This document shows, piece after piece, positions 7,499 to 64,000 of a DNA stretch of 64,000 bases; positions within the stretch are counted from its first letter, which is position 1, and each line of letters begins with the position of its first letter. Location: the NCBI RefSeq assembly GCF_018977255.1, contig NW_024704742.1, positions 50,656,001 to 50,720,000 on the forward strand, read 5' to 3'. This DNA comes from Callorhinchus milii. Taxonomy: Eukaryota. Both the position numbers and the translations under genes were made by a program. The notes beneath the pieces are model-generated. The model was not told where the DNA came from. It did not search any database and worked only from the letters and a program-made list of their open reading frames with translations.

Positions 7499-7606
7499 CA
7501 CATTCCTCCTCATCACTACGATCAACACAGTCTGCCTGTCCATCACACCAGCTTGATATCAACACACACCCTCCTGAGTTACACTTGAAATGACTTGGGG
7601 AACATT
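7499..7606 (-). CDS. corin: corin exon 13 equivalent: LDLa6 (ECSPSHFKCNSGGCVLISSWCDGQADCVDRSDEEEC)
   Basis: Read manually; 108 nt; ttttgtag|AA and G|gtaaga. Confidence 0.96.
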
Positions 7607-7774
7607 CTACAAAACGAAAATAAATAACTCGTTAAAGCATGTGATTACTGACAGAGGAAGTTTTTGCCACAAGGCTCAGGCTGACTGTTTTCATAGAGAT
7701 ATAAAAGGCTTACAGCACATTGTGCCTGTGCTGGTGCAACACCTCCAACCACAGGGGTATGGGGAAACAGCAGG

Positions 7775-10700
7775 TAACCCGAGCGTCCCCCTCCACTCTA
7801 AATGTCTCTTCTCTCACCCCCCTCTATCCGCTACTCCCCCTCTGCCCTTCTCTCCCACCGCCCTCCCCGCCTTTTCTCTCTCCTCGACCCCATCACCACT
7901 TCCCTCTGCTCCAGCCTGGGCATCCTCCACCGGGCCCATCGTGGCTCCCGGCACTGGCTGTCCCAGAGCAGCAAACCCATGTGTCCAATCATTCACTCCT
8001 TCCGCTCAAACCGCCTCCTTAAGGCAAACCCAACTTTCCCCTCCCCCATACGTACCCTCCCCAACTCTCCAATCCCACTCTCTCCACAACCATCTCTCCT
8101 GTACTCCCAAAAATCCTCTCCGCATCACCCTCTCCTCTCTCTTCTCCCTCCAGAAAACCCACCCACATTTCCTTCCAAAACATCTGTTCCCTCTCAAATA
8201 AAGCCCTCACCATCCACAACCTCATCCTGGACAAGCACCTTGACATTCTTGGGCTCACCGAAACCTGGCTCTCCCCCAATGACCCCATCCCCCTAGTGGA
8301 AGCCTCCCCTCCAGGCTACACCATCCACCACACCCCCGTCCAAACCAACGTGGCGGCGGGGTGGCCTTCATTTCCAAAGCCTCCCTTGGTCTTATCCCCT
8401 ACTCCTCTGGCTGCTTCCCCTCCTGCAAGCTCCTCACCCTCTTCCACCCCTCTCTCCCATTGAAAATCCTCCTTGTCTACCGCCACCCTAAACCCCCTGG
8501 CTCCTTCCACACAGATATCTCTACTCTCCTCTCTTCCCTGTCCCTCTGCTCCGAGCGCCTGCTCATAATGGGCGATTTCAACCTCCACCTAAACTCCCCC
8601 TGCACTACTTCTGCCGACTTCACTGCCCTCCTCTCCCCCCTAAACCTCACCCTTCATATAAACTCACCCACCCACAACCATGGTCATGCCCTTGATCTTG
8701 TTATCACCCACGGCTTTGACACTTCCGACCTCAGCATATTGAACATAGCCATCTTGGACCACTTCCTCATCTCCTTTTCCTCTCACATTCCTCACTCCTC
8801 CACCAAACCCTCAACCATCCTCTAGCGCCCTTGGACAAGGCTACCCCCTGAGACCCTCACAAAGGCCCTCTCATCATCAAACATCCTATCCCTCTGGCCT
8901 TCCACCTGCAATGACCCTGAAGCAGCCGTCCAGCTGCTCCGTGATTGCCTCTCCTCCACCTTCAACTCCCTCATCCCCCTGAAATCCAGGACCCCCATCT
9001 CCAAACCCACCCGATCCCTCTGGTACAACAACCATCTCCACTGCCAAAAAACCCAAACGGGGCTGATCGAGCGCAGATGGCAGAAAACTGGCCTGACAGT
9101 TCATCGGCACCTGTGGCCCAAGCATCTCCACAGCTACCGCCGTTCTTTGACACGCGCAAAAACGGCCTTCTACTCCAACATCATCTTGGAGACAAAACAC
9201 AACCCTAAAATCCTTTTTTCCACCACCCACTACCTCCTCCGTGCCCCCCCTCAGGCCTCCTCAATCTTCATATCAAATGCCAAGTGCGAGGAGGTCATGG
9301 ACTTCTTTTCATCTAAAATACATAACATCCGCCAGGCAGCCTCATCCACCTGCCTCTTGTCACCCACCACCACGCCCTCTCTGTCCCCCTCACCCTCCCC
9401 ATCATCTGCTCCTACCACCAACCCCATCCTATGTTCCTTCCTCCCCATCTCTCCCTCCTCCCTCTCACCCACCATCACCTCCATGAAACCCACCAACTGC
9501 TGCCTTGACCCCCTCCCCACCAACTTGCTGGTCACCCAGCTCCCCCTCCTCTGCCCACTACTGGCTGATGTCATCAACCAGTCCCTCTCCTCCGGATCAG
9601 TCCCTGCTCCCCTCAAAACTGCTGTCATCACCCACCTCCTCAAAAAACCTTCCCTAGATCCCTCAAACCCCAGCCACTACCACCCCATTTCTAACCTGCC
9701 CTTCCTCGCTAAAGTCCTAGAACATGGTTGTTGCCAATCAACTTCGCGTACACCTCTCCTCCCACTTCCTCTTCGAACCCCTCCAGTCCGGTTTCCACCC
9801 TGCCCATAGTACAGAGACTGTGCTTGTGAAAGTCACAAACTGCATCCTTTCTATCTGTGACCAGGGCTCCTTTGGCCTCCTTGTCCTCCTGGACCTCTCT
9901 GCTGCATTCGACACAGTCGATCACGCTATCCTCCTACATCACCTTTCCTTCATCATCCACCTGTGGGGTACCCCAAGGATCCATCTTGGTTCCCTCCTCT
10001 TTCTGATCTACGTGCTCCCTCTTGGGGATGTCATCCACAGACATGGGGTACGTTTCCACATGTACACGGACGACAGCCAACTCTATTTTCCCACTTCTCT
10101 TTCTGACCCCCAGTCCCCTGATGTTCTGTCAGCCTGCCTGTCAGATCTCAGGGGCTGGATGAGTGCAAATTTCCTTCAGCTGAACGTTGACAAGACGGAA
10201 GCCATACTCTGGCTCTCGTCAATGTCTAAAATCTCACGGCTCTCACCTCCTCCACCTACCTGACACCCCCTAAATCTCTCCGAACCCATACCCAACCTAG
10301 GTGTCAGATTCAACCCCCAATTATCCTTCCTCCCCCACATCCAGTCCCTCACCAGCACTGCCTTCTTCCACCTCTGACGCATCGCCCGTTTCCGCCAATA
10401 CCTCTCTCTGAAAGCCACTGAAACCCTGGTCCATGCCTTTGTCACCTCTCGGCTGGACTATTCTAATGCCCTCCTCGCCGGTCTCCCATCCGCTACCATC
10501 CATAAAATCCAAATCATTCAAAACTCTGCCGCCCGCATTCTCACCGGCAACAAACTCCGCTCCCCGATCACCCCAGTCCTTGCCAGACTGCACTGGCTGC
10601 CTATCCCAGAGAGGATCGACTTCAAGATCCTCACCCTTGTATTCAAATCCCTCCATTCCTCTGCACCCCCTACCTCTCTGACCTCCTCTCTCCTCAAAAC

Positions 10701-11010
10701 AGTATCCATTGTCTTCATTCCTCCGGTTCTGGCCTCCTCCTTGTCCCCCGAGTCCTCCGCTCCACCCTTGGCAACCGTGCCTTCAGCCACATGCCCCGAG
10801 GCTCTGGAATTCCCTTCCTCACTCCCTTCACCTTGTCCCTCTCTTCCTATTTTCAGATCCCTGCTGAAGACCTTTTTTTTGACTGCGCCTTTGGTCACCT
10901 TCCTCCCCCTCCCCCTGGCTCGACCCCGGAATCCGTTACTGTGAAGTGTTCTGAGACGCTGTCCGGCATGGAGGGCGCTGTATAAATCCAAGATGTTGTT
11001 GTTGTTATTG
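7775..11010 (+). mobile_element. L2-clade LINE, near-complete but disrupted ORF2 (APE endonuclease + RT) and 3' tail
   Basis: LTETWL, GGGVA, IMGDFN, HALDLV, DHFLI (APE); LLDLSAAFDTVDH, PQGSILG, HMYTDDSQLY, LNVDKTE (RT); frameshifts and stops; (GTT)n tail. Confidence 0.95.
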
Positions 11011-11060
11011 TAAATTTCCGATTTAGTGCTGATCTGTAAGCTTGCATTGATAGGACTAAC

Positions 11061-11206
11061 CTTCTACATTCTCATCAGGCATCAGACAGGTCTGATTGTC
11101 CAAATTTTCCCTTGGGAACTGATTGCAGTCCGTGCCATCAGGCCAAGATAGTCCAACCAGGTTCAGCAGTTTCTGACAACGCTCCTTGGAATTCTCACAC
11201 AAAGAC
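11061..11206 (-). CDS. corin: corin exon 12 equivalent: Frizzled CRD 2, C-half (SLCENSKERCQKLLNLVGLSWPDGTDCNQFPRENLDNQTCLMPDENVE)
   Basis: Read manually; 146 nt, phase 2-1; ctttcag|G and G|gttagt. Confidence 0.96.
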
Positions 11207-11819
11207 CTGAAAGCAACACAAATATCTATTAGGATGTAAAATGGGAATTCAGCTACCAGGCAAACAACAACCTATGTTGGTACAGTTCCTTTCACATAAG
11301 AAATGTCTCAAAATACTTTACACTAAGAATAATTAGAAATGTGACTGTTATCATTCGCCTACAAAATACAGAATCACTGCACTTTACAGTAAATCCTGTA
11401 GCGTGTTCTCCTGACGTGAAAGGCTCCATATCAAATGCAAGGATTATCATATAGTCAAATTGGTTGCTAATTTGCTCCAGCAATATCTTATGCACAACAA
11501 TGAGATTACTTAAATTAATGAAACACATAAAAGAGATTATGATCTGGAAATAAATAATAAACGTGTATTTGATATAGAATGGTATGTAGGCAAATGGAAC
11601 AACAGGTCTGTGACTTCAAAATCCTAGAAATAGCACAAAGGTCACAGGCAATTAAGTTAATTTGCCTGTTACAGATATGAGAAAAGAATGTGCTAACATT
11701 TACAGAACCATGATGGAGAGTGTTGGTTGTGTTGCACGCTGCAATTGGATTAACACAGATCTTTTTTCTTGAAGTTCTGGACTGGAATAATGCTCTCAGT
11801 CAGTTATTCTTACCAACGA

Positions 11820-12032
11820 TAATAATCCCTCCAAAAAAACAAAACAATAATAAATTGGTCATTTTCAATCCATGACTGTTTCTAGGACATTGCTGTGCGC
11901 AGTTGGCTGCCATGTTCGCCCACAAATATACAGTCAATTCACTTTACAGTATATTCTGTGAAGCCCTTTGGGACGCCTAGAAGACGTGAAAAGCGCTATA
12001 TCAAATGCAAGGATTATTATTATTATTAATAA
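11820..12032 (+). mobile_element. 5'-truncated SINE (one of many tail copies, e.g. ~2636, 14970, 22630, 23600, 38730, 43385, 49300, 54380)
   Basis: cagtcaattcactttacagtatattctgtgaagc...tatcaaatgcaaggattatt signature. Confidence 0.85.
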
Positions 12033-12064
12033 TACATGTTCAATGGCCAAGGCCCTCTGATTAC

Positions 12065-12296
12065 CTGCAAGGAGGGATCCCCTGATGAGTCTCATCATCA
12101 CACTTCGGCACAAGGATGGTGCATACGAAGAACATGAGGTACTTGTAACAGTTGGTCTCGACAAGGGTTGGGAACACAGAAAATGCCTTGCTTAATAACA
12201 CCTCTTTCTGGTTCCTATGGCCCATGAAGTTGGGGTAGATTGTGGAGTTGTATGGCTGATTCATGCAGAGTTCCAGAGAAATGGGCTCACATTTAC
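12065..12296 (-). CDS. corin: corin exon 11 equivalent: Frizzled CRD 2, N-half (KCEPISLELCMNQPYNST...NCYKYLMFFVCTILVPKCD...IPPCR)
   Basis: 232 nt, phase 1-2; ttcttcag|GT and AG|gtaatc. Confidence 0.97.
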
Positions 12297-12700
12297 CTGA
12301 AGAAGAAGAACATTTAAATGCATTTTTCTTTTCCATGACTCGAGTTTTGAAACCTTTGACAATGTGGATGTAAAGCAAAAAAAAGACACAAGGTTTGTTG
12401 TTATACTGTCTTTAAAATTGAAACTGCAGGTCTGTATTACTATAAGGCACTAAAAGGAAATGTATTTCCACTTAAAAACATAAGCAGACTTCCAATTGAT
12501 GATATCCATGGTACGTTCACCTAGAAAATACACACCCACTACATTCAAGGATACAGTATATCCTGTGAAGCATTTTGAGACACTTCAGCAATGTGATTAG
12601 GTGCTATAACAAATGTAAGGATTATTATTACTATTATTTTATGGCTTTCTATTCAACTATCTCAAACGTGCATCATTCAAATTGATTGGATCTAACTTAG

Positions 12701-12808
12701 TGCAGTTCATTCTATTACTTTGATCTGCACAACTAGAGCTTCCATTGCATGGATCAGCACAGGAATGTCCTACACAGGATTGAGCTCCTTCTTTACAAGG
12801 GCTCTGAT
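12701..12808 (-). CDS. corin: corin exon 10 equivalent: degenerate LDLa5 (DQSPCKEGAQSCVGHSCADPCNGSSSCADQSNRMNC); donor is non-canonical CT
   Basis: 108 nt; ctggcag|AT acceptor; the expected donor reads A|Ctaagt; 6 Cys without SDE, as in mammalian LDLa5. Confidence 0.88.
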
Positions 12809-13093
12809 CTGCCAGAGAACATAGAAAAAACAGGTGTGATTGTTGTTGACAACATGCAATCTTGATCAAACGGTCAGGAAATTCTATTCATGCCGTTCTT
12901 TGGTCAACCCATCACAAGGTAATCTTGAGATATACAGGAAAAGCAATCCTATATATTGCTTTTACAGTTCAGTTTTAATTCTGAAACTGGTTTTGAAGCC
13001 AATCTATTCAAGAACCATGGCAATTGTAGAACTTTCCAAAATTCTGCACGATCTTGGATTTTAACATGAGGAACGTCAGGCCTCAGATGTATA

Positions 13094-14012
13094 CAGTAAA
13101 ACTCCCATAAGTCTGATCTGTATAAATCATATAATCGCCTAAATCATACATTTACCCAAGTCCCATTGAAGTTCCTATTAAATCCACTTCAATTTATCTG
13201 CAAAAGTCGTATTAACAATCTCAGAACTCCCAATGCTGCTACTGCACTTGCCGGCTCCTGGGTCAAAACTTTGTTTTCCACGCCTATGTCCAACAGAGCA
13301 CCTCACATACTCATCCTGACTCTCTCCATGTCCTCCCTCCCAGGGTGTAACATCAACATCATCGCGCTTGGCAGTGTGAGGGGGGAGGCTGAGAGAGGAA
13401 AGAGCATCACCTGATCACGTGATGAACAAGGGATGCCTGAGTAAAGGGGACCCTTCACTGCATTCACACTTACCAGACTTGAAACAGCATAAACAGTGAT
13501 CCATGTGGAACCTCAGTCCACACCTCATGCTCATTTACAGGCTGCAATGATGCAGGACCACATGCGCAGTACAGAACACTGAACAAGTATAGAAGACAAG
13601 ATTTTGACCAGGCATCATGGCATCAGGCAATGCAGATACCCCAACTAAACACAAATTAAGTTTATATTCTATTAAAACAGTTCTGTTCTGAAACCTGTTT
13701 GGTTGTGCCAATCATTGTACAGGACATGTTTTCTGCACATGAGGTACACTACTGTGCAGTACTGGATATATAAACAATGGGCTACCATAGCTTTAATATA
13801 CATTGGTTAAACATGGTACAGAAACCTTGCCTTAATATCATCAGCCAGTTCAGTACTTGTTATTTATTATGTGTTAGTCATATAAAATCCGACTTATACA
13901 TAACTTTACATAAGTCATGTATAATACAGTCTAAGTTTCACATAACTCATGCTTTGCATAAGTCATATTAAATGTATGGTCTCAACTGATACAATTCATA
14001 TGAGGTTTACTA
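13094..14012. mobile_element. possible non-autonomous Tigger/pogo-like DNA transposon
   Basis: TA|CAGTAAAACTCCCATAAG ... CATATGAGGTTTACTA|TA degenerate TIRs with TA flanks. Confidence 0.4.
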
Positions 14013-15268
14013 TATAATAGGATACCTAGCAATACAGTACTTAAACTTTCACCTTTACCTTCCACCTCTGACTTAGTGTGATCCTAATCTATCACCAGGC
14101 ATGAACTGTGCCCCTGAAGAACTGACAGGAAATAAATCTACTGATTTTCCTAGTTCAGACAAGAGTGAGGAAGTTGGAAGAGTCTTTAAATCAATGGTGC
14201 AATTGTGCAGCCTGCTGTATTTACCTGCTGCTTGCAGTTCTGCCTTAAAATGGTCAGGTCTTGCCAGGTCTCAGTAACAAAGCTCTCATTTCATCTGCTC
14301 AAAAGGAGCCAAATAGGTAAGTTTCTACATTTCATGTAGAGGTGACTAGACAGGTTTTCACTGAGACTGATTGCTCATTCACTTCACGGCTGTTTATGGT
14401 ACATTACTCTGCTCGAATTGGTTGCCGCAATTGCTACAAAGCACAGTCACTCCACTTTACAGTATATTCTGTGAAGAAGCATTTTCAAATATCCACCTGG
14501 CAAGAAAGGCCAAATCAAATGTAAGAATTAGTATTATTATCACATTTAATCTGTTTCAAATGCCACAAATTTCACCCCATAAAGTCATATTAAAAATCTT
14601 AAGGTTGAATTATTTGTGTTGTAAAATTGTAATTACAGATATTTCTAAACGTATATAAATGAACTTGCAAAATTTACTGAATTGGGGAGAATAGTGTTTA
14701 ATTCACATTAATTAATGTGCTGCAAAGCAAAGTAGCAGTTAATTAACAGATGATTTTTTTCAACATTTCACTGAAATGCAAAAAAAACACAAAATAAGAG
14801 TAATTTTCTTTTAACAGAAACAGCTTTTTGAGTGAAAGAAATGGAGGAAGTTTGGACCTTTGACCATTCAGTGAGACCAATATACAAACATGAAATATTT
14901 AAAATACTTCTTGTAATTGATAACATTTAAAATTAACTTAATTTTTCACAATCACCAGTTTCTTGGCTAATAATAATAATCCTTGCAATTGTATAACGTC
15001 TTATCATGTCGTCACAACGTCTCAAAGCACTTCACAGAATATACTTAAAGTAGTTTTGACTGTGTATTTTCTGAGCAGCCAAATGTTCCGAGTCCTGACA
15101 TGGAGCATGAGCTTACAACCTTCTGACTGAGAGGCGAGAGTGCTTCCACTGAGCCGGGCTGACACACCAATGTGAATCTATAGTATTTGATTTATTTCAG
15201 AAATAAATTCTGTTTTTAGTCTTTTCATCTTCAAGTATTGGTGCTGGATTTTCAGAAGAATTACAAAC

Positions 15269-15394
15269 CAGTAGGAGAGGTAGAGCAGTTCACTTCATCA
15301 CTCCAGTCTTCACAGTCATTTTCACCATCACAATGGAAGAGCTTTAGGAAGCAATTGCCGTTGCCACAGTCCAGCATACCTTTGGCGCTGCAAG
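15269..15394 (-). CDS. corin: corin exon 9 equivalent: LDLa4 ([42 protein letters not shown])
   Basis: Not in the ORF track on this strand; read manually; 126 nt, tttttcag|CT acceptor, G|gtttgt donor (weaker, so the 3' boundary is less certain). Confidence 0.9.
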
Positions 15395-17228
15395 CTGAAA
15401 AAGGAGCAATATCAATGAGTTCAAAACCCTAAAGGCTTTCAAACAAAGCAATTCTCAGCACAGCATTCAAGAACTCTTAAAACCAATTATATTAATATGT
15501 AACAGAATGAGGAGTGAACTACTGCCTGAATTTGATTGATGTTTTGCAATATTCAGTGAGTTTGACTAAATCTAGAACATAGAAGGAAACCCTAAGCACA
15601 TGGGAAACAAGGCTGATAACTATACTGAAAAAAAGCTATGTTGGAATTCGTTGTGGGTGGTACCAAAACATGTAGCTTGTCCGTCCAGGTCATTTTAATG
15701 CAATTCTTGGAAATGTTTCTTAAAGAAGGGCTTTAGCATAGCAGAACTACACAGTGACCTTCTCCTGCAGAAGTCATCTGAGAGATAATTGTAATAATTT
15801 AGAGGCACTACAAGCTGACCAGTCTGCCGCGTTCTTCATTGCATCGCTTTGACGAGGCACTAAAATACTCTGACGTTGCTGGGCTCCCTGCTGCTCATTG
15901 CTGTTCAGTCTCTATCAGCCAACTCCTGGTAATGTGTACTTTATGATATCAGTTTATGAATTATAATTTTTTTTCAGATGGCACATAGGCAAACATTTCT
16001 TTATCGTGAATATCTCTTCACACTCCTGATGATGAAGCAGCTTCGAATGTGTTGTATATATTTCAATTATTGCAATAAAGCAATGCAGCTTTTGTCAGCT
16101 TCAGTTACAGACCCAGACACGGCATTACATAAGACAGACAGACAACCATGCTTTCTTAAGAAAGTTCAGTCTCATCTGGTTTAGTGTTGTGTTGGTGCTG
16201 ACACTCTACATGCCAGATCCTAGCAGTATATTTAGTTATGGTGTAGAACAGACAGATGGGATATTTATAGTAGAGCTGTGCTGACTGGATATGTCTGCCA
16301 GCAACTTTACTACAGCTGAACATGTTGCCAGGTCCTGACTAGCAGTGTCTGATGTCTGCTTTTACAAAGAGGCATTTAGACACTGCTTGGTAATGAAGCT
16401 CCCAATGGCAAACACAACATTAGAGTCAATGGAGTACCATTAGTCACTTAACTGCTGCTAAACAAAGCCACTGAGGCAATAAAAAGATGTGTTTCTCGTC
16501 CCAATCCCCAGCTCGGCTCCAAATCTTTCATTGGCCAGTGCCTTGCGAAAGGCTATACAAGTGTACTTTGTTGTTGTTGATAAAGAAACATATGAAGAAA
16601 TATTGCAAAATTTACCCTTCATTTTTTATGAGCTTTTTAGACCGTTTGAATTTCTTGTTTACACTAATGGATTGTTACTCACTAGCCCTGGTATGCTAAG
16701 GAGGTGTATTTGTGCTTAGTTTAGGGGACAAGGAGATATGTACTTGGCGTTCACCTGTCCATGTCACATGTATGATCTGATATTTGATCGATCATCTATT
16801 CTGACACAGACAAGAGACTGTAGCTTCCGCCGCAAGTCCAAAGACAGTGAGTGCAACTTTAAGCTCTATCAGAACTTAGCTGTGAAACAAACCTACACAG
16901 AAAGTGGTAAACATGTTATCCAAGGCAAAAAACATTGATCCAGTTATTGACTTAACGTTTTCTGGTGATATAGTGCAGATAAAGAGGGAAATTAGCTATT
17001 TGCCAAAGTAATCAACTAAAGGGTAGTGAAGGATTTTCTTTTTACTTTGGGCTCATACCGTTACACTACAAAGGTGTTTTCCGTTGCTGTACATTCTTAT
17101 GTACACTAAATCTGGTCTATGTGCCACTAATATTCAAAGCACACATTCCTAACTTCATTTCTAGCCAACATTACTGAAGTGCTTGTATGACTGAGCGGCT
17201 GTAGTGTTGTAGTGAGTTGAGGACTTAC

Positions 17229-17339
17229 AGCAGTTAACCTCATCAGAATAGTCGGAGCAGTCATGGTCTCCGTCACAAACCCACGACTTCAGGATACACC
17301 TGCCATCTCCACATCTGAAACCCACCTCTGGCTTGCACT
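17229..17339 (-). CDS. corin: corin exon 8 equivalent: LDLa3 ([37 protein letters not shown])
   Basis: 111 nt; ctacag|AG and T|gtaagt. Confidence 0.96.
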
Positions 17340-18733
17340 CTGTAGATAACACACAGTTTAAGGGCCTTGTCAACACATTACATCGCATTAACGCTGGCAC
17401 GAATTGAAGGAACACTTAAAAATACTGCGAATATTACCCTAATGTTTCTTCATAAAACCAGTCACTTAAACACAGTCCATTGATTGTTAGGGACTAATCA
17501 TCTGGAGATCAGTTTCCATATCAGTCTGACCTTTGTTCCCAACACAGTGATCTCATAGACCAGCCTGACACATCAGGTTAGTACTGGTGTGAGCCTTCAT
17601 TGTTAGAGGTGACATGTTTTGTTTAAGATATTAAAACTGGGATCTTCTGACTGTTCAGGAGGAATTTAAAGATTCCATGACACTATTTAAAAAGTGAAGG
17701 GAGTAGCTCATTGTGTCCTGGCCAACAATCTTCCATTGGACATTAATTGACATTTACTCCATGTCTATTTGTAAGATTTTCCTGTGTATAAAATGGCTCT
17801 TTGGCTAATTTAATCTCATCCTTCCAGAACAGCAACTTAAGTCTTCCCATTACAACACAATGTGGTTTAATTAGCTTTATGTCCTGACCTGACGTAAACT
17901 ACGCTTATTAATAACTCATAATAACTACTGATTACTTTCTGTCTAAAAAACGTACTTCCTGGCGTTTACTCTGAAATTGAACTTTTGTCCTGTTGTCTTA
18001 GAATAGCTCTATCTCATTTGGCGTTCATATATCTCCAAAGATCTCCTTAAAGTTATTTATTTTCAAGGCTGAAGAGTCCTATCTTATCTACTTGTTTCTC
18101 ATAGCTCATCCCTCTAACAACTCTTGTTGCGCTTGGTAGGACCTGGGAAGACTCCTTATGTCACACTCACCAGAACTGTGACCGTTACTCTTGGAGCAAC
18201 CCGACCAGAGACTATACAGCTTGAGCATGACCTCTGAGCATCTGACCTCAAATGATTTGGTAATAACAGCCCAGTCACTCTTTCACCTTGTTTTTCACCT
18301 TCCCTTGGTAGTTTTTACCTCATTCATGGTATGTACGTCTTCTATTTTGGCTTCCTATATTGTATTTATCTGTATTAAACATAATTTGCCAGTGAACAAC
18401 CAATGTGCTTACCCTATTTGGATTGCTTCCTGATTCCATAGCTCTCCCTAACTTACTTGGGTCTATAAAATTGAACTATCTGTAAATCCAGGTCATTTAT
18501 TTAGACGAGGAACAGGTGAGGACCCAGAGAAACTCCACTCAATACTTCCCCACATATCAACCGAGCGAGCATGAATGTGATTCCCATCTTCACATGTTCT
18601 GATTTATGTTCCAGTAAAACAGCACTGAACATCTACAAAAATGTAATGAAATAAAATGTTGATTTGCAAATATATATTAAGCACGGGCTTTGGTTGTTAG
18701 ACAGGGAAAGATGGTACATAGAGTGGTACTTAC

Positions 18734-18841
18734 CACAGCCCATTTCATCGCTGAGGTCCCCACAGTCATCATAGCCATCACATGTGTTATTGTAGAGTAT
18801 GCATTTTCCAGTGCCACACTGAAACTGGCTTTCACCACAAG
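18734..18841 (-). CDS. corin: corin exon 7 equivalent: LDLa2 ([35 protein letters not shown])
   Basis: 108 nt, phase 1-1; ccacag|CT and G|gtaagt; 6 Cys plus SDE motif. Confidence 0.96.
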
Positions 18842-19590
18842 CTGTGGACAAAGAACACCAAAAGCTTTAGATCTATTGACAATTTACATGAAGTTCAAAA
18901 TGTCTGCAAACTCAACTACTGCACTAAGCAATTCACATTTGAGCCAGTGGGCAATACCTCTGGTTTCGCATTTTTTTAATATCTTACAACCTCATTAAAA
19001 TAAGGTACATTATTCAGTCCTTTTCACTTCTTTCACTGCTCCCCAATGAGCCACCTTCAGGCAGGGAGTACAATGATGTGGTCTCAGTTAGCTCAGTACC
19101 TACCCAGAGTCATTGCCGTTCTGATCCTCCAACAGAGCACTTGTTGATTGCTTTTTTCTTGATAAAGTTAACATGACGTAGTAGACATCAGCCGACACAT
19201 AGCAAAACGAGCACAAGATTTAAAAACTCGCAGGACATTGTTTTGAATATATTGAAACATTTGGGTAAAAAACCATGGTCCATAGAGCATGGGGGCATCC
19301 TGGGGGCAAGTTTGCACGAAGCAGGAGAAGAGACAAGGTAAATTAACCCTAGGCAATCCCAAGCTTAAGTTTTAGAAGCCTTTTGTAGGAGGAAAGGAAA
19401 ACTGAGCGAAGTCAAGAATTAATTAATATCATAATTACTCAAAATCAGCTATAAGTGTCCAATATATATGCCACCAAAGCGGTATACACAATGGTTTCAT
19501 TTTCCCATTACATTACTTATCAATGAGTCTATGGAAATAGTGCAATGATTCTCTAGAGTCAATGAAGGAAAAGAAACAATAGTGACATAC

Positions 19591-19704
19591 TGCAGTGTGC
19601 CTCATCGCTCCAGTCGTCACAATCATTGTAGCCGTTGCACATCAGTTTCCTCTCGATACAGAAGCCGCTTCCACACAAGAAATTCTCAAGACCTCCACAT
19701 ATAG
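19591..19704 (-). CDS. corin: corin exon 6 equivalent: LDLa1 ([38 protein letters not shown]); acceptor is non-canonical AT
   Basis: 114 nt; A|gtatgt donor; [16 protein letters not shown] matches corin LDLa1; the expected acceptor reads tttttttgcaT|CT. Confidence 0.9.
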
Positions 19705-19789
19705 ATGCAAAAAAAGAAAAACACATAATCAAAGCTTCAGCACTGATATTTAAGCTGGCCAGAGTTGGCAGAGCAGTGGAAACAGATGA

Positions 19790-20000
19790 GGGAGAAGTGT
19801 TGCAAGAGATCACCAAGGTAGGATTGGGTAAGGCAGTGGACGCACCTAAAGGCAACGAGGAAGATGTTAAAATTGATTCATTGGGGAATAGGGAGCCAGT
19901 GGAGCCGGGACAAGGGTAGGGCCGCGGAGCCTATTGTGGGAAAGGTGCCGGCTGCAGAGTTCTGGTTGATCTGGAGCTTGTGGATAGTGAAGCTACCACG
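19790..20000 (-). mobile_element. L2 fragment
   Basis: IHKLQINQNSAA...RLHWLPIPQ. Confidence 0.75.
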
Positions 20001-59516: not shown

Positions 59517-59661
59517 CCATAAATGCTAAGAGGATTGCAAGTACACAGATGAGGGCGCAGACTGATGGAATAAGGATAAACAGCAGGAGGCGGAGGTGCT
59601 TGACAGATCCCATCTTCTGAGGAATAGCGTCGCCCACACCACCTTCATCTGTGCCCGGCAT
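59517..59661 (-). CDS. corin: corin exon 2 equivalent: cytoplasmic tail and signal-anchor TM (MPGTDEGGVGDAIPQKMGSVKHLRLLLFILIPSVCALICVLAILLAFMG)
   Basis: 145 nt; gagcag|ATG acceptor, G|gtaag donor; resembles mammalian QKLxTANLLRFLLLVLIPCICAL. Confidence 0.95.
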
Positions 59662-60519
59662 CTGCTCAAGGAGTAAAGAGAGAAAGACACCAGTGACTTT
59701 ATCAGCTTGCTGTGGTTCACAAACACCGAGTGCAGATGAATCACATATAAAAAAAATTTAAAAAAGGAATAAAACGGTGGCAAGATTCAGATTTACAATT
59801 TCATGTCACAGCCCTGGAGTTGTTCTGGGTTTTGGGGTCAGGATTTCTCAGGCGAGGTTAATGTTTGGTGATCAGCACACAGGCAGGTAAGGCTGCCTTG
59901 CAATTGCTCCAATGCAACCAACCAATTCATTGCAGTGAAACAAACATACATTGAAACAGAGGGAATTGACAGTAGTGTTGAACATCCCCGGGTGCAATTT
60001 AACACTCGTGCAATTTTTTTTTTAAAAATGTTAGAAATTATTTGAATGTTGAACGCTTTCCAAATCGAAATTGTGCAGTCGTGTCGTTTCTGTTTAGACG
60101 AATAAAATAACATCAGAGAGACCCCTCGAGCTGGACTCGAACACACAAGGAGTTTGCTGCAACTCTGCTGCGCCTTTGCTTTGCAAAGTGCTGCGAGGTA
60201 TTATATAGCTGATCCAACCCCTCACTCCTCAGGGTGCGATCACTCAATGTTAGGACTTCAATAGTTTCCCCTGCAACCATTTCAAGACCTGGTTTCCAGC
60301 AAACAGCCGATTAAACTGGTGGGAACTGAAATACACACAGGATCTGCTCAAGACCCCCATGTACAGGGTATCCAACTGCCATCAGTTCAATCGTCGCCTG
60401 TTTGCTGTCAGTGAGATCTTGAAAAGGGTTGAAGGGCATCAATTGAACTCCTAATATTTTGCGTTTCCAATGACCCATCTCGGCTTCTCCTTGGTTCTGA
60501 GTCACCGCTCTCACATGAT

Positions 60520-60870
60520 GTCCTGTAACTCAGTGGTTAGAGCACTCGCTTTGCAAGTGAGAGACCTGAGTTCAATTCCAGGCAGAGGGCGAAACCTTGG
60601 GCAAGTTTCCTTACTCCACACAGAGCCTAATAATAATCCCTCCAAAACCAAAAACAATAACAAATCGGTCATTTTCAATCTACGACTGTTTGTGGGACAT
60701 TGCTGTGCGCAATTGGCTGCCGCGTTCGCCCACAAATACACAGTCAATTCACTTTACAGTGTGTTCTGTGAAGCGCTTTGGGACGTCCTCCCGACGTGAA
60801 AAGCGCTATATCAAAATGCGAGGATTATTATTATTATTATTATTATTATCATTATTATCATTATTATAAC
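60520..60870 (+). mobile_element. short-subfamily tRNA(Ala)-SINE with an (ATT)n tail
   Basis: Near-identical to the 55057 copy. Confidence 0.9.
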
Positions 60871-60879
60871 TATGATCCC

Positions 60880-61320
60880 AAACGTCCGAGCGGAGTCCCC
60901 GCAGCGGCGCACTGCTGCTGCTTTGCGGTAATGTTTGCAGATTGTGTGCCCGATCTGATCCGTCATTAAACAGAGTTCTCCCATCGTGTCTTTCGGATGT
61001 CCGCCCCGTTTGGAGCACTCGCTGTTGGTGAGCGGTGCCACACTCCCTCCCACTCTCACAGCTTTCCTGTCCAACAGATAAAGTTACATACACTCACCCC
61101 CACAGCGGCCGCTCACACCGTGAACTTCACAAAGGAGACATAGAGGTCGTGGCTGTTGCTGTGCACTAACCTGTACGATGCACTAAGACAGACTGAGCTG
61201 CATGAACCCCCCACCTCTCCTGACTGCCCTCCCGGGTTATAACCCGCCGCTCACTCTCACTGCTCTCAGCCTTTCCACCGCAACAACGTAGTGTGGAGGT
61301 GGGAAACATTATCGCGCACA
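60880..61320 (-). promoter_or_regulatory. CpG-enriched candidate internal promoter or non-coding first exon
   Basis: Visible CpG density; TTATAA at 61237-61242; GGG|gtgagt donor at 61098/61097; AGATAA (GATA) at 61076-61081. Confidence 0.3.
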
Positions 61321-61726
61321 CAACACAACACAACACAACACAACACAACACAACACAACACAACACAACACCACACCACACAACACAACACAACACAACA
61401 CAACACAACACCACACAACACAACACAACACAACACCACACAACACAACACAACACAACACAACACCACACCACACAACACAACACCACACAACACCACA
61501 CAACACAACACAACACCACACCACACCACACAACACCACACAACACCACACAACACCACACAACACAACACAACACCACACCACACAACACAACACCACA
61601 CAACACAACACCACACAACACAACACAACACCACACAACACAACACAACACAACACAACACAACACCACACAACACAACACAACACCACACAACACCACA
61701 CAACACAACACAACACAACACAACAC
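61317..61726. repeat. (ACAAC/ACACC)n pentanucleotide array
   Basis: Seen directly. Confidence 0.98.
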
Positions 61727-61877
61727 GGTGGTATTTTTACCCAAAGTCTCCGTGTGCGCAATAAACAAGTCAGTCAGGAGGCAGATCTCTTACAGTCTGT
61801 CTCTCTGGGAACGCACTGCCAGGCAGCGAAGCCAAGGCATTTACACTGCCAAGGCTGCCAGCCCAGCCGTGCCACTA

Positions 61878-62179
61878 CCAGCCAGTCTGCCAGTCTGTCT
61901 GCCTGTCTGTCAGTCTGTCTGCCAGTCTGTCAGTCTGCCAGTCTGTCAGTCTGTCTGTCTGTCAGTCTGTCAGTCTGCCAGTCTGTCTGCCTGCCTGTCT
62001 GTCAGTCTGCCTGTCTGTCAGTCTGTCTGTCTGTCAGTCTGTCTGTCTGTCAGTCTCACAGTCTGTCTGCCTGTCAGTCAGTCAGTCAGTCAGTCAGTCA
62101 GTCAGTCAGTCAGTCTGTCTGCCTGTCTGCCTGTCTGCCTGTCTGCCTGTCTGCCTGTCTGCCTGTCTGCCTGTCTGCC

Positions 62180-62211
<32 letters not shown>

Positions 62212-62398
62212 AGTCTGTCAGTCTGCCTGTCTGCCTGTCTGTCTGTCTGTCTGTCTGCCTGCCTGTCAGTCTGCCTGCCTGCCTGCCTGCCTGCCAGCCT
62301 GCCAGTCTGCCAGTCTGTCTGTCAGTCTGCCTGTCTGTCAGTCTGTCTGTCAGTCTGTCAGTCTGCCTGTCTGCCTGTCTGTCTGCCTGCCTGTCAGT

Positions 62399-62429
<31 letters not shown>

Positions 62430-62593
62430 CCAGCCTGCCAGTCTGTCTGTCAGTCTGCCTGTCTGTCAGTCTGTCTGTCAGTCTGCCTGCCTGTCAGTCT
62501 GCCTGCCTGTCAGTCTGCCTGCCTGCCTGCCAGCCTGCCAGTCTGTCTGTCAGTCTGTCTGTCTGTCTGTCAGTCTGTCAGTCTGTCTGTCTG
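61878..62593. repeat. compound (CTGT/CAGT/CTGC)n tetranucleotide array
   Basis: Seen directly. Confidence 0.98.
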
Positions 62594-62670
62594 TGCTCCG
62601 GACACTGGAGATCACCTGTCGGCACCGGTGGAAGGTTTAGCAGCAGTGAGGTACTATCCAGGCATCTTAC

Positions 62671-62742
62671 CTGTCGGTTTTGTTTTATATTCACATCTTC
62701 ACTTGTCAGGTCGGACACAGAGCAAACCCACCCTGTGCTGAA
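62671..62742 (-). CDS. corin: candidate upstream corin exon for a long cytoplasmic tail (FSTGWVCSVSDLTSEDVNIKQNRQ)
   Basis: 72 nt, phase 0-0; tttaatcag|TTC and CAG|gtaaga; splices in frame to exon 2; only weak remembered similarity to the rodent long tail. Confidence 0.55.
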
Positions 62743-63564
62743 CTGATTAAACAGTGCAAGAACGTTTTCGTTTTCAAAAAAATATATATTTTGGAGACAG
62801 AAGTCTTTCTGTTTAGGTCTGAGTTGCTTTTTGGGGACTGATCTCACGCCCTGTGTGTGAACATCAATCATTCAGTTCCCAAGTCTGAATCCGACCATCA
62901 CTGGTCTTGGCCATTCGTGCTTTGGTCTTTACAATTTAAACTGTTGCAATTTAAAGAGAGATGGACAGCATTTACCCAAAGACAAACGCACACTGGGAAT
63001 AACAGGACTGCAAATATAAGAAGAGATCGTTTCAAACAGAGGTCACGTTTCAAATAGGCAACTTTTAACTTCCAGCCATTTCCCAAATCGAATCAGCAGT
63101 TCTTGAACAGTCACATCCCGTTATTAAACCCTCCAAATACTTTATGATAAGAGCAAAAAAAAAATACTGCTGGACCAAAGAAGACCAAGGTCTATCCAGT
63201 TCGCCTTCCACCACCCTGTCAGTCGCAAGCACATGCCATGTCCCAACCTATATAGTTTATCCTGAGATATTATTTCCTAAAATAAATCTATAATTCTAAT
63301 TATAGTTACCACAAGTGTACTATTTGGACAAAACACTGCCTCAACGACCATGTGGAAGTCTTCCCCACCTTGGGAGTGCATTTCGATCCATTAGGGATCA
63401 AAGAAGCTGCACAAAACAAACTCCAACCTCCTGCTCGGATTTTACACAGCATTTCAAGTTTTCATTCAACAGAGCTCTTCGCTATCTTCCACGTGAAGAG
63501 TTCCCTGTGGGCAGCACCTGCCCACACCCGTACCGTTCCCCAAACACTTTGCAGCTCAACTTAC

Positions 63565-63622
63565 CTTCAGTAAGTCACCCCAACAAGTGTGTGACACAGC
63601 TGATCCGTCAGCTGATCGGGAT
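63565..63622 (-). CDS. candidate further-upstream corin exon (xSRSADGSAVSHTCWGDLLK) or 5'UTR exon
   Basis: Perfect AAG|gtaagt donor in phase 0; possible tgtttcag acceptor; no in-frame ATG nearby. Confidence 0.35.
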
Positions 63623-63870
63623 CTGAAACATTCGCACTCAAAAACAGCTAAAGTTGCATTGCGCAATAACACTTAAACTCACACACACACACACACACAC
63701 TCTCTCTCTTTCTGCATTTGGTAGTTGCAGGAATATGATCGTGTGAGAGTTAGTCCTTTCGAAACATTTTTCACTGTTTTCTTTCACGATTCGCAATACA
63801 TCTCTAAACGAGAACTCCAAACGCTCCTCCCTTTGCGGACTCGGTTTAGTTAGCACCCGATCTCACCTCA

Positions 63871-63901
<31 letters not shown>

Positions 63902-63969
63902 CAAATAAACGCACGGATCGTTCATCACGAGGAGGTCGAAAAATAAACGCAGAGCAACTGAAAAGTCCG

Positions 63970-63970
<1 letters not shown>
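63600..63970. promoter_or_regulatory. CpG-enriched 5' region, candidate promoter-proximal
   Basis: Many CpGs compared with the CpG-poor introns; upstream of all exons found. Confidence 0.3.

Positions 63971-63971
<1 letters not shown>

Positions 63972-64000
<29 letters not shown>
63972..64000. repeat. (TA)n microsatellite running to the window end; (CA)n tracts at ~63680 and ~63871
   Basis: Seen directly. Confidence 0.97.

What the first reader, a model, noticed from the sequence alone, without database searches (positions are those of the whole stretch)
12695..12720. corin LDLa5 exon donor has lost its invariant G (A|CTAAGT) and has an in-frame cryptic donor 18 nt upstream
Seen: at the boundary giving a 108-nt phase-1 exon, the intron starts CTAAGT, a perfect GTAAGT except at +1 (plus-strand g at 12700). 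The nearest downstream GT (AA|gttaga, 4 nt on) frameshifts, and read-through stops at ~12657. An exonic AAA|GTAATA (GT at 12718-12717) is in frame and removes 6 codons including the last Cys; skipping the exon is also in frame. Known: CT-AG is not a normal U2 or U12 intron class, and LDLa5 is the degenerate repeat of corin. Inference: a base-call error, a segregating splice allele, or a fixed remodelling/loss of LDLa5.
Basis: partly seen in the sequence, partly recalled or inferred. Interest (0 to 1): 0.72.

Follow-up and report, generated by a model that had tools for sequence, protein, structure and literature searches.

The report
Dead splice donor silences corin exon
In the elephant shark's corin gene one small exon still reads as intact protein code but has lost the essential first base of its splice signal, and the transcripts seen leave it out: an ordinary kind of exon loss, apparently caught early.

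Summary
The window is Callorhinchus milii corin on the minus strand. The 108-nt, phase 1-1 exon for the degenerate fifth LDLR-like repeat (12808-12701) is open and keeps six cysteines, but its intron starts CTAAGT (plus-strand G at 12700). It is not an assembly error. Contigs of two whole-genome-like runs from two other samples span the site: X2 matches it exactly, and X1 has no G>C there. All 13 junctions of the NCBI model in the window have a GT-AG solution. Two RNA runs each give a 3.7-3.8 kb spliced corin contig. Piece ends and depth arithmetic show these contigs omit the exon and fit a direct LDLa4-to-Fz2 join. Both NCBI isoforms show the same join. No use of the cryptic GT at 12718 was seen. 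The RNA contigs do not support that donor either. The exon shows no excess divergence from shark and skate orthologues, so the loss looks recent. This is a known kind of event, a +1 donor mutation causing in-frame exon skipping, and of modest interest.

The parts
15269..15394 (-). LDLa4 exon of corin; its donor (GTTTGT, 15268-15263) is the one joined to the Fz2 exon in the transcripts seen
   Evidence: GT-AG solution 15269 -> 12296 reproduces NCBI model P0029
12809..12830 (-). Intact 3' splice site of the silenced exon: pyrimidine tract and AG at 12810-12809
   Evidence: read directly
12701..12808 (-). LDLa5 pseudo-exon: 108 nt, phase 1-1, open frame, six Cys; orthologous to the fifth, degenerate LDLR-like repeat of other corins; absent from the main mRNA contigs
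   Evidence: single copy in the assembly
12695..12700 (-). Dead donor CTAAGT: consensus GTAAGT except position +1 (plus-strand G at 12700)
   Evidence: same base in the X2 contig, no G>C here in X1
12717..12718 (-). Exonic in-frame cryptic GT (AAA|GTAATA); no use seen
   Evidence: it would give a Fz2 piece end at 12292, not the 12294 seen
12702..12703 (-). In-frame GC dinucleotide (ACT|GCACTA); the donor that reproduces the UniRef/Ensembl-type models (..NRMNCKCEPI..); no use seen in RNA contigs
   Evidence: depth arithmetic
12695..12696 (-). Next GT downstream (+4); gives a 112-nt frameshifting exon that meets a stop codon right after the joint
12657..12659 (-). TAG that ends read-through from the exon into the intron
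12065..12296 (-). First exon of the Fz2 domain; acceptor CTTCAG before 12296; covered by spliced RNA contigs of 3846 and 3732 nt

Best explanation
A real germline substitution turned the donor of the corin LDLa5 exon from GT to CT at intron position +1. It is carried by every elephant-shark haplotype examined. Without the +1 G the U2-type spliceosome cannot use the site. The exon is therefore not defined and is skipped whole, and the LDLa4 donor (15269|GTTTGT) is joined to the Fz2 acceptor (CTTCAG|12296). The exon is 108 nt and phase 1-1, so the frame is kept. The corin made lacks only the degenerate fifth LDLR-like repeat, leaving a short linker between LDLa4 and Fz2. Shown here: the base in independent DNA, the absence of the exon from the main mRNA contigs, and the in-frame result. 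Inferred: that the ancestral base was G, that the change is fixed, that it is recent, and that the shortened protease works.
For: Sequence: CTAAGT at 12700-12695. DNA: the X2 contig 12611-13119 differs from the window at one place only, 13075. X1's only G>C in the 8.8 kb is at 12943. X1 and X2 come from two samples and differ from the window at 26 and 37 places, so they are other haplotypes. RNA: X5 and X6 give spliced corin contigs of 3846 nt (depth 28.6) and 3732 nt (depth 52). They differ from each other at exonic places 11124 and 17302. Their Fz2 piece lies at 12063-12294, the shifted placement expected for the LDLa4 donor. The ancestral CT site would give 12296, the GC donor 12295 and the cryptic GT 12292. 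Depth arithmetic: bins holding LDLa1, LDLa2, LDLa3 and Fz2b match contig depth times exon length, for example X5 gives 10.6, 10.5, 10.8 and 14. In bin 12764-13057 the X5 depth of 3.67 equals the unspliced record 18 alone (3.9 x 277/294). The X6 depth of 7.41 is below what the 52-deep contig would add (7.96) plus record 26 (2.2). Annotation: both NCBI isoforms read '..SPTGKCEPI..'. 13 of 13 junctions of that model in the window have a GT-AG solution. Orthologues: 21 of 25 non-Callorhinchus corin records carry a six-Cys segment here, and 24 of 25 carry at least four Cys. Tolerance: passages of a review state, citing Knappe et al., that Fz1 and LDLR1-4 are the elements that recognise pro-ANP (PMC4063317). 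The general effect of +1 donor mutations is established knowledge; one example with aberrant transcripts is PMC6825843 (passages).
Against: All run evidence comes from assembled contigs, which drop rare variants and cannot show absence. The LDLa4-Fz2 joint itself was not among the joint rows printed (954 rows not shown); it is inferred from piece ends and depth. The piece end at 12294 also fits the +4 GT donor, and only the depth arithmetic excludes that. In X6 the bin over the exon's 5' part has about 1500 depth-letters not accounted for by the listed pieces. A minor exon-containing contig could hide there, though the DNA runs show a repeat-like excess in the same bin. X1's contig has a third difference that was not listed; it is not G>C. 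The tissues of the RNA runs are unknown. The exon shows no excess divergence, which fits recent loss but equally fits continued use. Only two DNA samples were laid, so fixation is not shown.
Confidence: 0.8

Rival explanations
1. The exon is still included in a minority of transcripts, or in a tissue not sampled. Inclusion would go through the in-frame GC donor (12704|GCACTA, which keeps the sixth Cys), the cryptic GT (12719|GTAATA, which loses it) or the CT site itself. The animal would then make two corin forms.
For: The open frame, six Cys and intact 3' splice site are all kept. The exon-to-flank identity ratio is 0.73-0.81 for C. milii against elasmobranchs and 0.71-0.85 among elasmobranchs, so there is no visible decay. 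UniRef models include the exon through a GC-AG solution. CT-AG pairs exist, though very rarely: six EST-supported pairs, as PMC6825843 quotes Burset et al. 2000 (passages). Some depth in X6 bin 12764-13057 is unaccounted for.
Against: In X5 no contig covers 12764-12780, while the corin contig has depth 28.6. The main contigs of both RNA runs omit the exon. The GC site has a poor context (ACT|GCACTA). The only records found to contain the exon are the three homology-built UniRef models (1 cluster among 2 candidates, none).
Confidence: 0.1
2. CT is a common but not fixed allele, and a canonical GT allele still segregates in the species. Some individuals would then include the exon.
For: The lack of decay in the exon fits a young allele. 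Only two DNA samples were laid. The region is polymorphic, with 26-37 differences per 8.8 kb per run.
Against: The window, X1 and X2 carry no C at 12700. The contigs run unbroken from 12611 to 13119 in both runs, so there is no sign of a heterozygous break. The two RNA samples, which are two different genotypes, both skip the exon.
Confidence: 0.08
3. The G at 12700 is an assembly or base-call error, and the real donor is GT.
For: None beyond the prior that odd splice dinucleotides in assemblies are often errors.
Against: Contigs of two other samples agree with the window at this base. Transcript contigs and NCBI models skip the exon.
Confidence: 0.02

Closest known systems
Exon skipping caused by a mutation of the invariant +1 G of a U2-type 5' splice site (a class well known from human disease alleles; example of a +1 donor variant with aberrant transcripts: SMPX, PMC6825843, passages read)
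   Same: A single base change at +1 in an otherwise consensus donor (xTAAGT). The canonical junction is lost. The exon is symmetric, so the frame is kept.
   Different: Here it is the state of the reference and of two further samples of a wild species, not a disease allele. The outcome seen is clean skipping, not a set of cryptic products.
Corin of sharks, skates and bony vertebrates (Fz1, LDLR1-5, Fz2, LDLR6-8, SR, protease; eight LDLR repeats per PMC9138375 and PMC7605860, passages read)
   Same: Same gene: 100% identity to records that the sources name Callorhinchus milii corin. Same exon-per-repeat layout, and the same junction codon after the fifth repeat.
   Different: The elephant-shark mRNA has seven LDLR-type repeats and no fifth repeat. 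21 of 25 other records keep a six-Cys fifth repeat.
Rare CT-AG and GC-AG introns
   Same: The intron as drawn by homology is CT-AG. Moved 3 nt, it is GC-AG.
   Different: No transcript evidence was found that either is spliced. The GC site lacks the strong consensus that GC donors usually have; that property is recalled, not tested here.
Pseudo-exons, meaning lineage-specific exon death inside an otherwise working gene
   Same: The orthologous exon is coding in relatives. A splice signal is broken and the rest of the gene is intact. P0029 keeps the Trypsin, SRCR_2 and Fz domains and seven LDLa stretches.
   Different: The exon body shows no decay yet.

Membership tests
Corin (atrial natriuretic peptide-converting enzyme) orthologue | Sequence identity to named corin records and the domain set Fz x2, LDLa, SRCR, trypsin | tested here: met
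   100% identity to two Callorhinchus milii corin records. P0029 has Ldl_recept_a (7 stretches), Fz (2), SRCR_2 and Trypsin above cut-off.
Corin (atrial natriuretic peptide-converting enzyme) orthologue | Eight LDLR-like repeats, five of them between Fz1 and Fz2 (PMC9138375, PMC7605860, passages) | tested here: not met
   The mRNA contigs and NCBI models lack the fifth repeat. The gene still holds its exon.
LDL-receptor class A repeat (Pfam PF00057), for the 12808-12701 exon | Six cysteines in the usual spacing | tested here: met
   six Cys, as in 21 of 25 orthologous records.
LDL-receptor class A repeat (Pfam PF00057), for the 12808-12701 exon | Match to the Pfam profile, including the acidic calcium-binding cluster | tested here: not met
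   0 families at E<=1 for the 35-residue exon. Corin models with and without the exon both give seven stretches. The acidic cluster seen at the end of LDLa4 (..DWSDE..) has no counterpart here.
U2-type GT-AG intron | G at +1 and T at +2 of the donor | tested here: not met
   C at +1, while +2 to +6 are consensus (TAAGT). The acceptor AG and pyrimidine tract of the downstream exon are present.
U2-type GC-AG intron (placement 12704 -> 12296) | GC donor with transcript support | tested here: not met
   a GC-AG solution exists and matches the UniRef models. It would give a piece end at 12295, and 12294 was seen. Depth shows the exon is absent from the main contigs.
U12-type intron | Donor of the /RTATCCTT type (motif recalled, not from a call) | tested here: not met
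   the intron starts CTAAGTTAG.
Exon silenced by a splice-site mutation (pseudo-exon) | Orthologous exon coding in relatives; invariant splice base changed in genomic DNA of more than one individual; transcripts skip it | tested here: met
   relatives; two further DNA samples, two RNA samples; models. Skipping is inferred from contig pieces and depth, not from a printed joint.

The most novel reading that the evidence does not exclude
The exon is not dead. Its undiminished conservation would then mean that the fifth repeat is still made. That could happen from a segregating GT allele, or by stage- or tissue-specific splicing at the GC site 3 nt upstream or at the CT site itself. The elephant shark would then switch between seven-repeat and eight-repeat corin by a non-canonical donor.
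Probability: 0.07. Interest if true: 0.55.

Novelty: new member of a known kind. Interest (0 to 1): 0.25.

Why it matters
The case shows how a vertebrate protein loses a domain. One transversion at a donor +1, in a symmetric exon that encodes one repeat, removes the repeat cleanly, while the exon body still looks coding. It also serves as a natural deletion experiment. If elephant-shark corin is active, the degenerate fifth LDLR-like repeat, which is kept in 21 of 25 other corin records examined, is dispensable. That agrees with the mapping of substrate recognition to Fz1 and LDLR1-4 in human corin (PMC4063317, passages). It also matters for annotation. The homology-built UniRef models of this gene insert an exon through alternative sites, including a GC donor, that the transcript contigs do not support. 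The NCBI models look right. Beyond that the event is of a well-known kind.

Tried and rejected
- No listed holder was on record as RNA. X5 and X6 were taken as RNA only after laying them showed spliced contigs.
- The joint table was cut (954 rows not shown), so the LDLa4-Fz2 joint was not seen directly.
- Orthologous DNA of other chimaeras could not be reached.
  - The search with the Fz2 exon found no other holocephalan record (28 proteins among 29 candidates).
  - The search with the exon's read-through frame found only the UniRef C. milii cluster among longer proteins (1 among 2 candidates).
  - The same query found nothing among proteins of similar length.
- A second copy of the exon in the assembly: none, one match, itself.
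- U12-type donor: rejected on sequence.
- Use of the exon as an alternative terminal exon by read-through to the TAG at 12657: rejected, because X5 has no cover at 12764-12780.
- Earlier notes of this scan: none at this place. Five notes elsewhere in the genome have no bearing.
- Papers on elephant-shark corin: the search 'Callorhinchus' + 'corin' + 'natriuretic' gave one unrelated paper. The search 'corin' + 'LDLR repeat' + 'frizzled' + 'exon skipping' gave no paper on skipping of this exon. No published description was found in these two searches.
- Tandem repeats in 7600-11000: none.

Full report
WHAT THE WINDOW IS. The 76-residue translation of 12294-12067 (minus strand) is 100% identical to two records that their sources name corin (atrial natriuretic peptide-converting enzyme) of Callorhinchus milii. 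It is 62-78% identical to corins of sharks, a skate, a bird, primates and ray-finned fishes (28 proteins among 29 candidates). tblastn of three of these proteins against the window, followed by a junction solver, places fifteen corin exons on the minus strand, from the first coding exon near 59661 to the first SRCR exon near 2303. Each LDLR-type repeat has its own exon.

THE OBSERVATION.
- On the minus strand a pyrimidine tract and AG (12810-12809) precede an exon of 108 nt (12808-12701).
- In the frame set by the LDLa4 exon (which ends at 15269 in phase 1) the exon is open and has six cysteines.
- The intron then starts CTAAGT, so plus-strand 12700 is G.
The GT at 12696-12695 gives a 112-nt frameshifting exon. 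Read-through stops at 12659-12657. The GT at 12718-12717 gives a 90-nt in-frame exon without the last Cys. Skipping is in frame.
- Shark, skate and bony-vertebrate proteins have their junction at the same codon ('..NCS.CEP..'), so this is the ancestral donor position.
- All 13 junctions of NCBI model P0029 that lie in the window have a GT-AG solution.

IS THE BASE REAL? One index search found 11 runs that hold part of 11000-19800. I laid four of them.
- X1 and X2 come from two samples of one study. Their contigs total about 0.89 billion letters and cover 30 of 30 bins, introns included, so they behave as whole-genome DNA.
- Both have a 509-letter contig over 12611-13119. X2's contig has one difference, and the only difference listed for X2 in that range is 13075. 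X2 therefore carries the window's base at 12700.
- X1's contig has three differences. Two are listed (12943, 13075) and one is not. X1's tally by kind shows a single G>C in the whole stretch, which is 12943, so X1 has no canonical allele at 12700.
- X1 and X2 differ from the window at 26 and 37 places, and from each other. They are therefore other haplotypes and not the assembled one.
- Assembly error is rejected. Fixation is not shown, because contigs drop rare variants and only two samples were laid.

WHAT THE TRANSCRIPTS DO. X5 and X6 were labelled 'RNA?'. Each gives a long contig (3846 nt at depth 28.6; 3732 nt at depth 52) of which 232 letters lie on the Fz2 exon. The bin depths of other exons equal contig depth times exon length.
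- X5 observed 10.6, 10.5, 10.8 and 14 for LDLa1, LDLa2, LDLa3 and Fz2b, against 10.6, 10.5, 10.8 and 14.2 expected.
- X6 observed 19.3, 21.3, 19.7 and 25.5, against 19.3, 19.1, 19.6 and 25.8 expected.
- These are therefore spliced corin mRNA contigs. The two runs differ at exonic places 11124 and 17302, so they are two genotypes.

Two arguments show that these contigs leave the exon out.
- Depth. In bin 12764-13057, which holds 45 nt of the exon, the X5 depth of 3.67 is exactly the unspliced record 18 (3.9 x 277/294). Nothing else lies there. The X6 depth of 7.41 is less than the 7.96 that the 52-deep contig would add, before counting record 26 (2.2).
- Piece ends. The Fz2 piece lies at 12063-12294, not 12065-12296. 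The tool gives letters that fit both sides of a joint to the higher-coordinate piece. This is confirmed at the Fz2a-Fz2b joint, where the next exon starts GT like the intron. A script compared the start of the Fz2 exon with the letters behind each candidate donor. The CT site shares 0 letters (piece end 12296), the GC site 1 (12295), the cryptic GT 4 (12292), and both the LDLa4 donor and the +4 GT share 2 (12294). The +4 GT is excluded by the depth argument, which leaves the LDLa4 donor.
- The joint itself was not among the printed rows, so skipping is an inference from two concordant measures and not a read-out.
- It agrees with both NCBI isoforms, which read '..SPTGKCEPI..'.

THE OTHER PUBLIC MODELS. 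Three UniRef records of the species include the exon ('..SPTGFPCKEG...NRMNCKCEPI..').
- The solver shows how. They use a GT five letters into the LDLa4 intron (last exon base 15265) with an AG inside the exon (first exon base 12801). Downstream they use a junction whose only recognised placement is GC-AG (last exon base 12704, intron GCACTA).
- This in-frame GC donor recreates the sixth Cys codon and drops one Ser.
- Its context is poor and the RNA contigs do not support it.
- No other record containing the exon was found.

IS THE EXON DECAYING? The exon is single copy in the 991.5-Mb assembly.
- Translated in its ancestral frame it is 54-59% identical to the shark and skate segments.
- Divided by the identity of 275 flanking residues, the ratio is 0.73-0.81 for pairs with C. 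milii and 0.71-0.85 among elasmobranchs. No excess divergence is visible.
- With 37 residues the power is low.
- The likeliest reading is a loss that is recent relative to the split between chimaeras and elasmobranchs. Continued use is the alternative, and I give it about 0.07-0.1.

WHAT THE REPEAT IS. Pfam finds nothing in the exon at E<=1. It finds seven Ldl_recept_a stretches in corin with or without the exon, in the elephant shark and in the catshark. The exon is thus the degenerate fifth repeat of the eight counted in the literature (PMC9138375 and PMC7605860, passages). Among 25 non-Callorhinchus records with a recognisable Fz2 start, 21 have six Cys in this segment, two have five, one has four and one has none. 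One further record (P0027) lacked the motif and was left out of the count.

MECHANISM AND COMPARISON.
- The +1 G of a U2-type donor is needed for splicing chemistry, and its loss typically gives exon skipping or cryptic-site use. This is established knowledge. PMC6825843 (passages) describes a +1 donor variant with several aberrant products.
- That paper quotes Burset et al. for 99.24% GT-AG, 0.69% GC-AG, 0.05% AT-AC and 0.02% other pairs, with six EST-supported CT-AG pairs.
- Here the 3' splice site of the exon is intact and positions +2 to +6 remain consensus. A single transversion from GTAAGT is therefore the simplest history (inferred).
- Human corin recognises pro-ANP through Fz1 and LDLR1-4, as a review states citing Knappe et al. 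(PMC4063317, passages). A form without the fifth repeat is therefore plausibly active. This is inferred and not tested.

VERDICT. The base-call error reading is rejected. Loss of the repeat by whole-exon skipping is the best-supported reading (0.8). This is a new instance of a well-known kind of event, and I score its interest at 0.25.

Noticed in passing
window 11880-12030, 12550-12640, 14968-15069: Very high-copy short repeats (SINE-like, starting with an AAT run) sit in the introns on both sides of the Fz2 exon. Summed word depth reaches 1.7-1.9 million in the DNA runs. 11924-12025 and 14968-15069 form a 102-nt inverted pair, 75% complementary. One copy lies only about 60 nt downstream of the dead donor. 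The family was not identified.
   Followed up: partly
window 13075-14425: All four laid runs differ from the window at the same 13 or so places, and all carry a 7-letter insertion behind 14413. The reference haplotype is either divergent here or contains errors.
   Followed up: no
window 7800-10800: A 3-kb stretch in the Fz2b-LDLa6 intron is strongly C-rich on the plus strand, with 81-100 C in most 200-letter steps, and has no tandem repeats. By eye it looks like the coding part of a retroelement antisense to corin. This was not tested.
   Followed up: partly
window 11124 and 17302: These are exonic polymorphisms in corin. 11124 T>C (Fz2b exon) occurs in X2 and in the X6 mRNA contig; read by hand it is a first codon position, Asn to Asp. 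17302 G>A (LDLa3 exon) occurs in X2 and in the X5 mRNA contig, at a third codon position.
   Followed up: partly
proteins P0002, P0030, P0031 (UniRef models of this gene): Besides the LDLa5 junctions, these models replace parts of exon 2 and of the SRCR and early protease region with unrelated-looking residues, compared with the NCBI models. They look mis-modelled.
   Followed up: no
window 59662-64000: NCBI isoform X1 has 23 more N-terminal residues than X2. An AG acceptor sits directly before the ATG at 59661. Three short words from that extension were not found in the minus-strand frames of the window, so the upstream exon lies outside the window or is split.
   Followed up: partly
window 35053: A single N in the window.
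   Followed up: no
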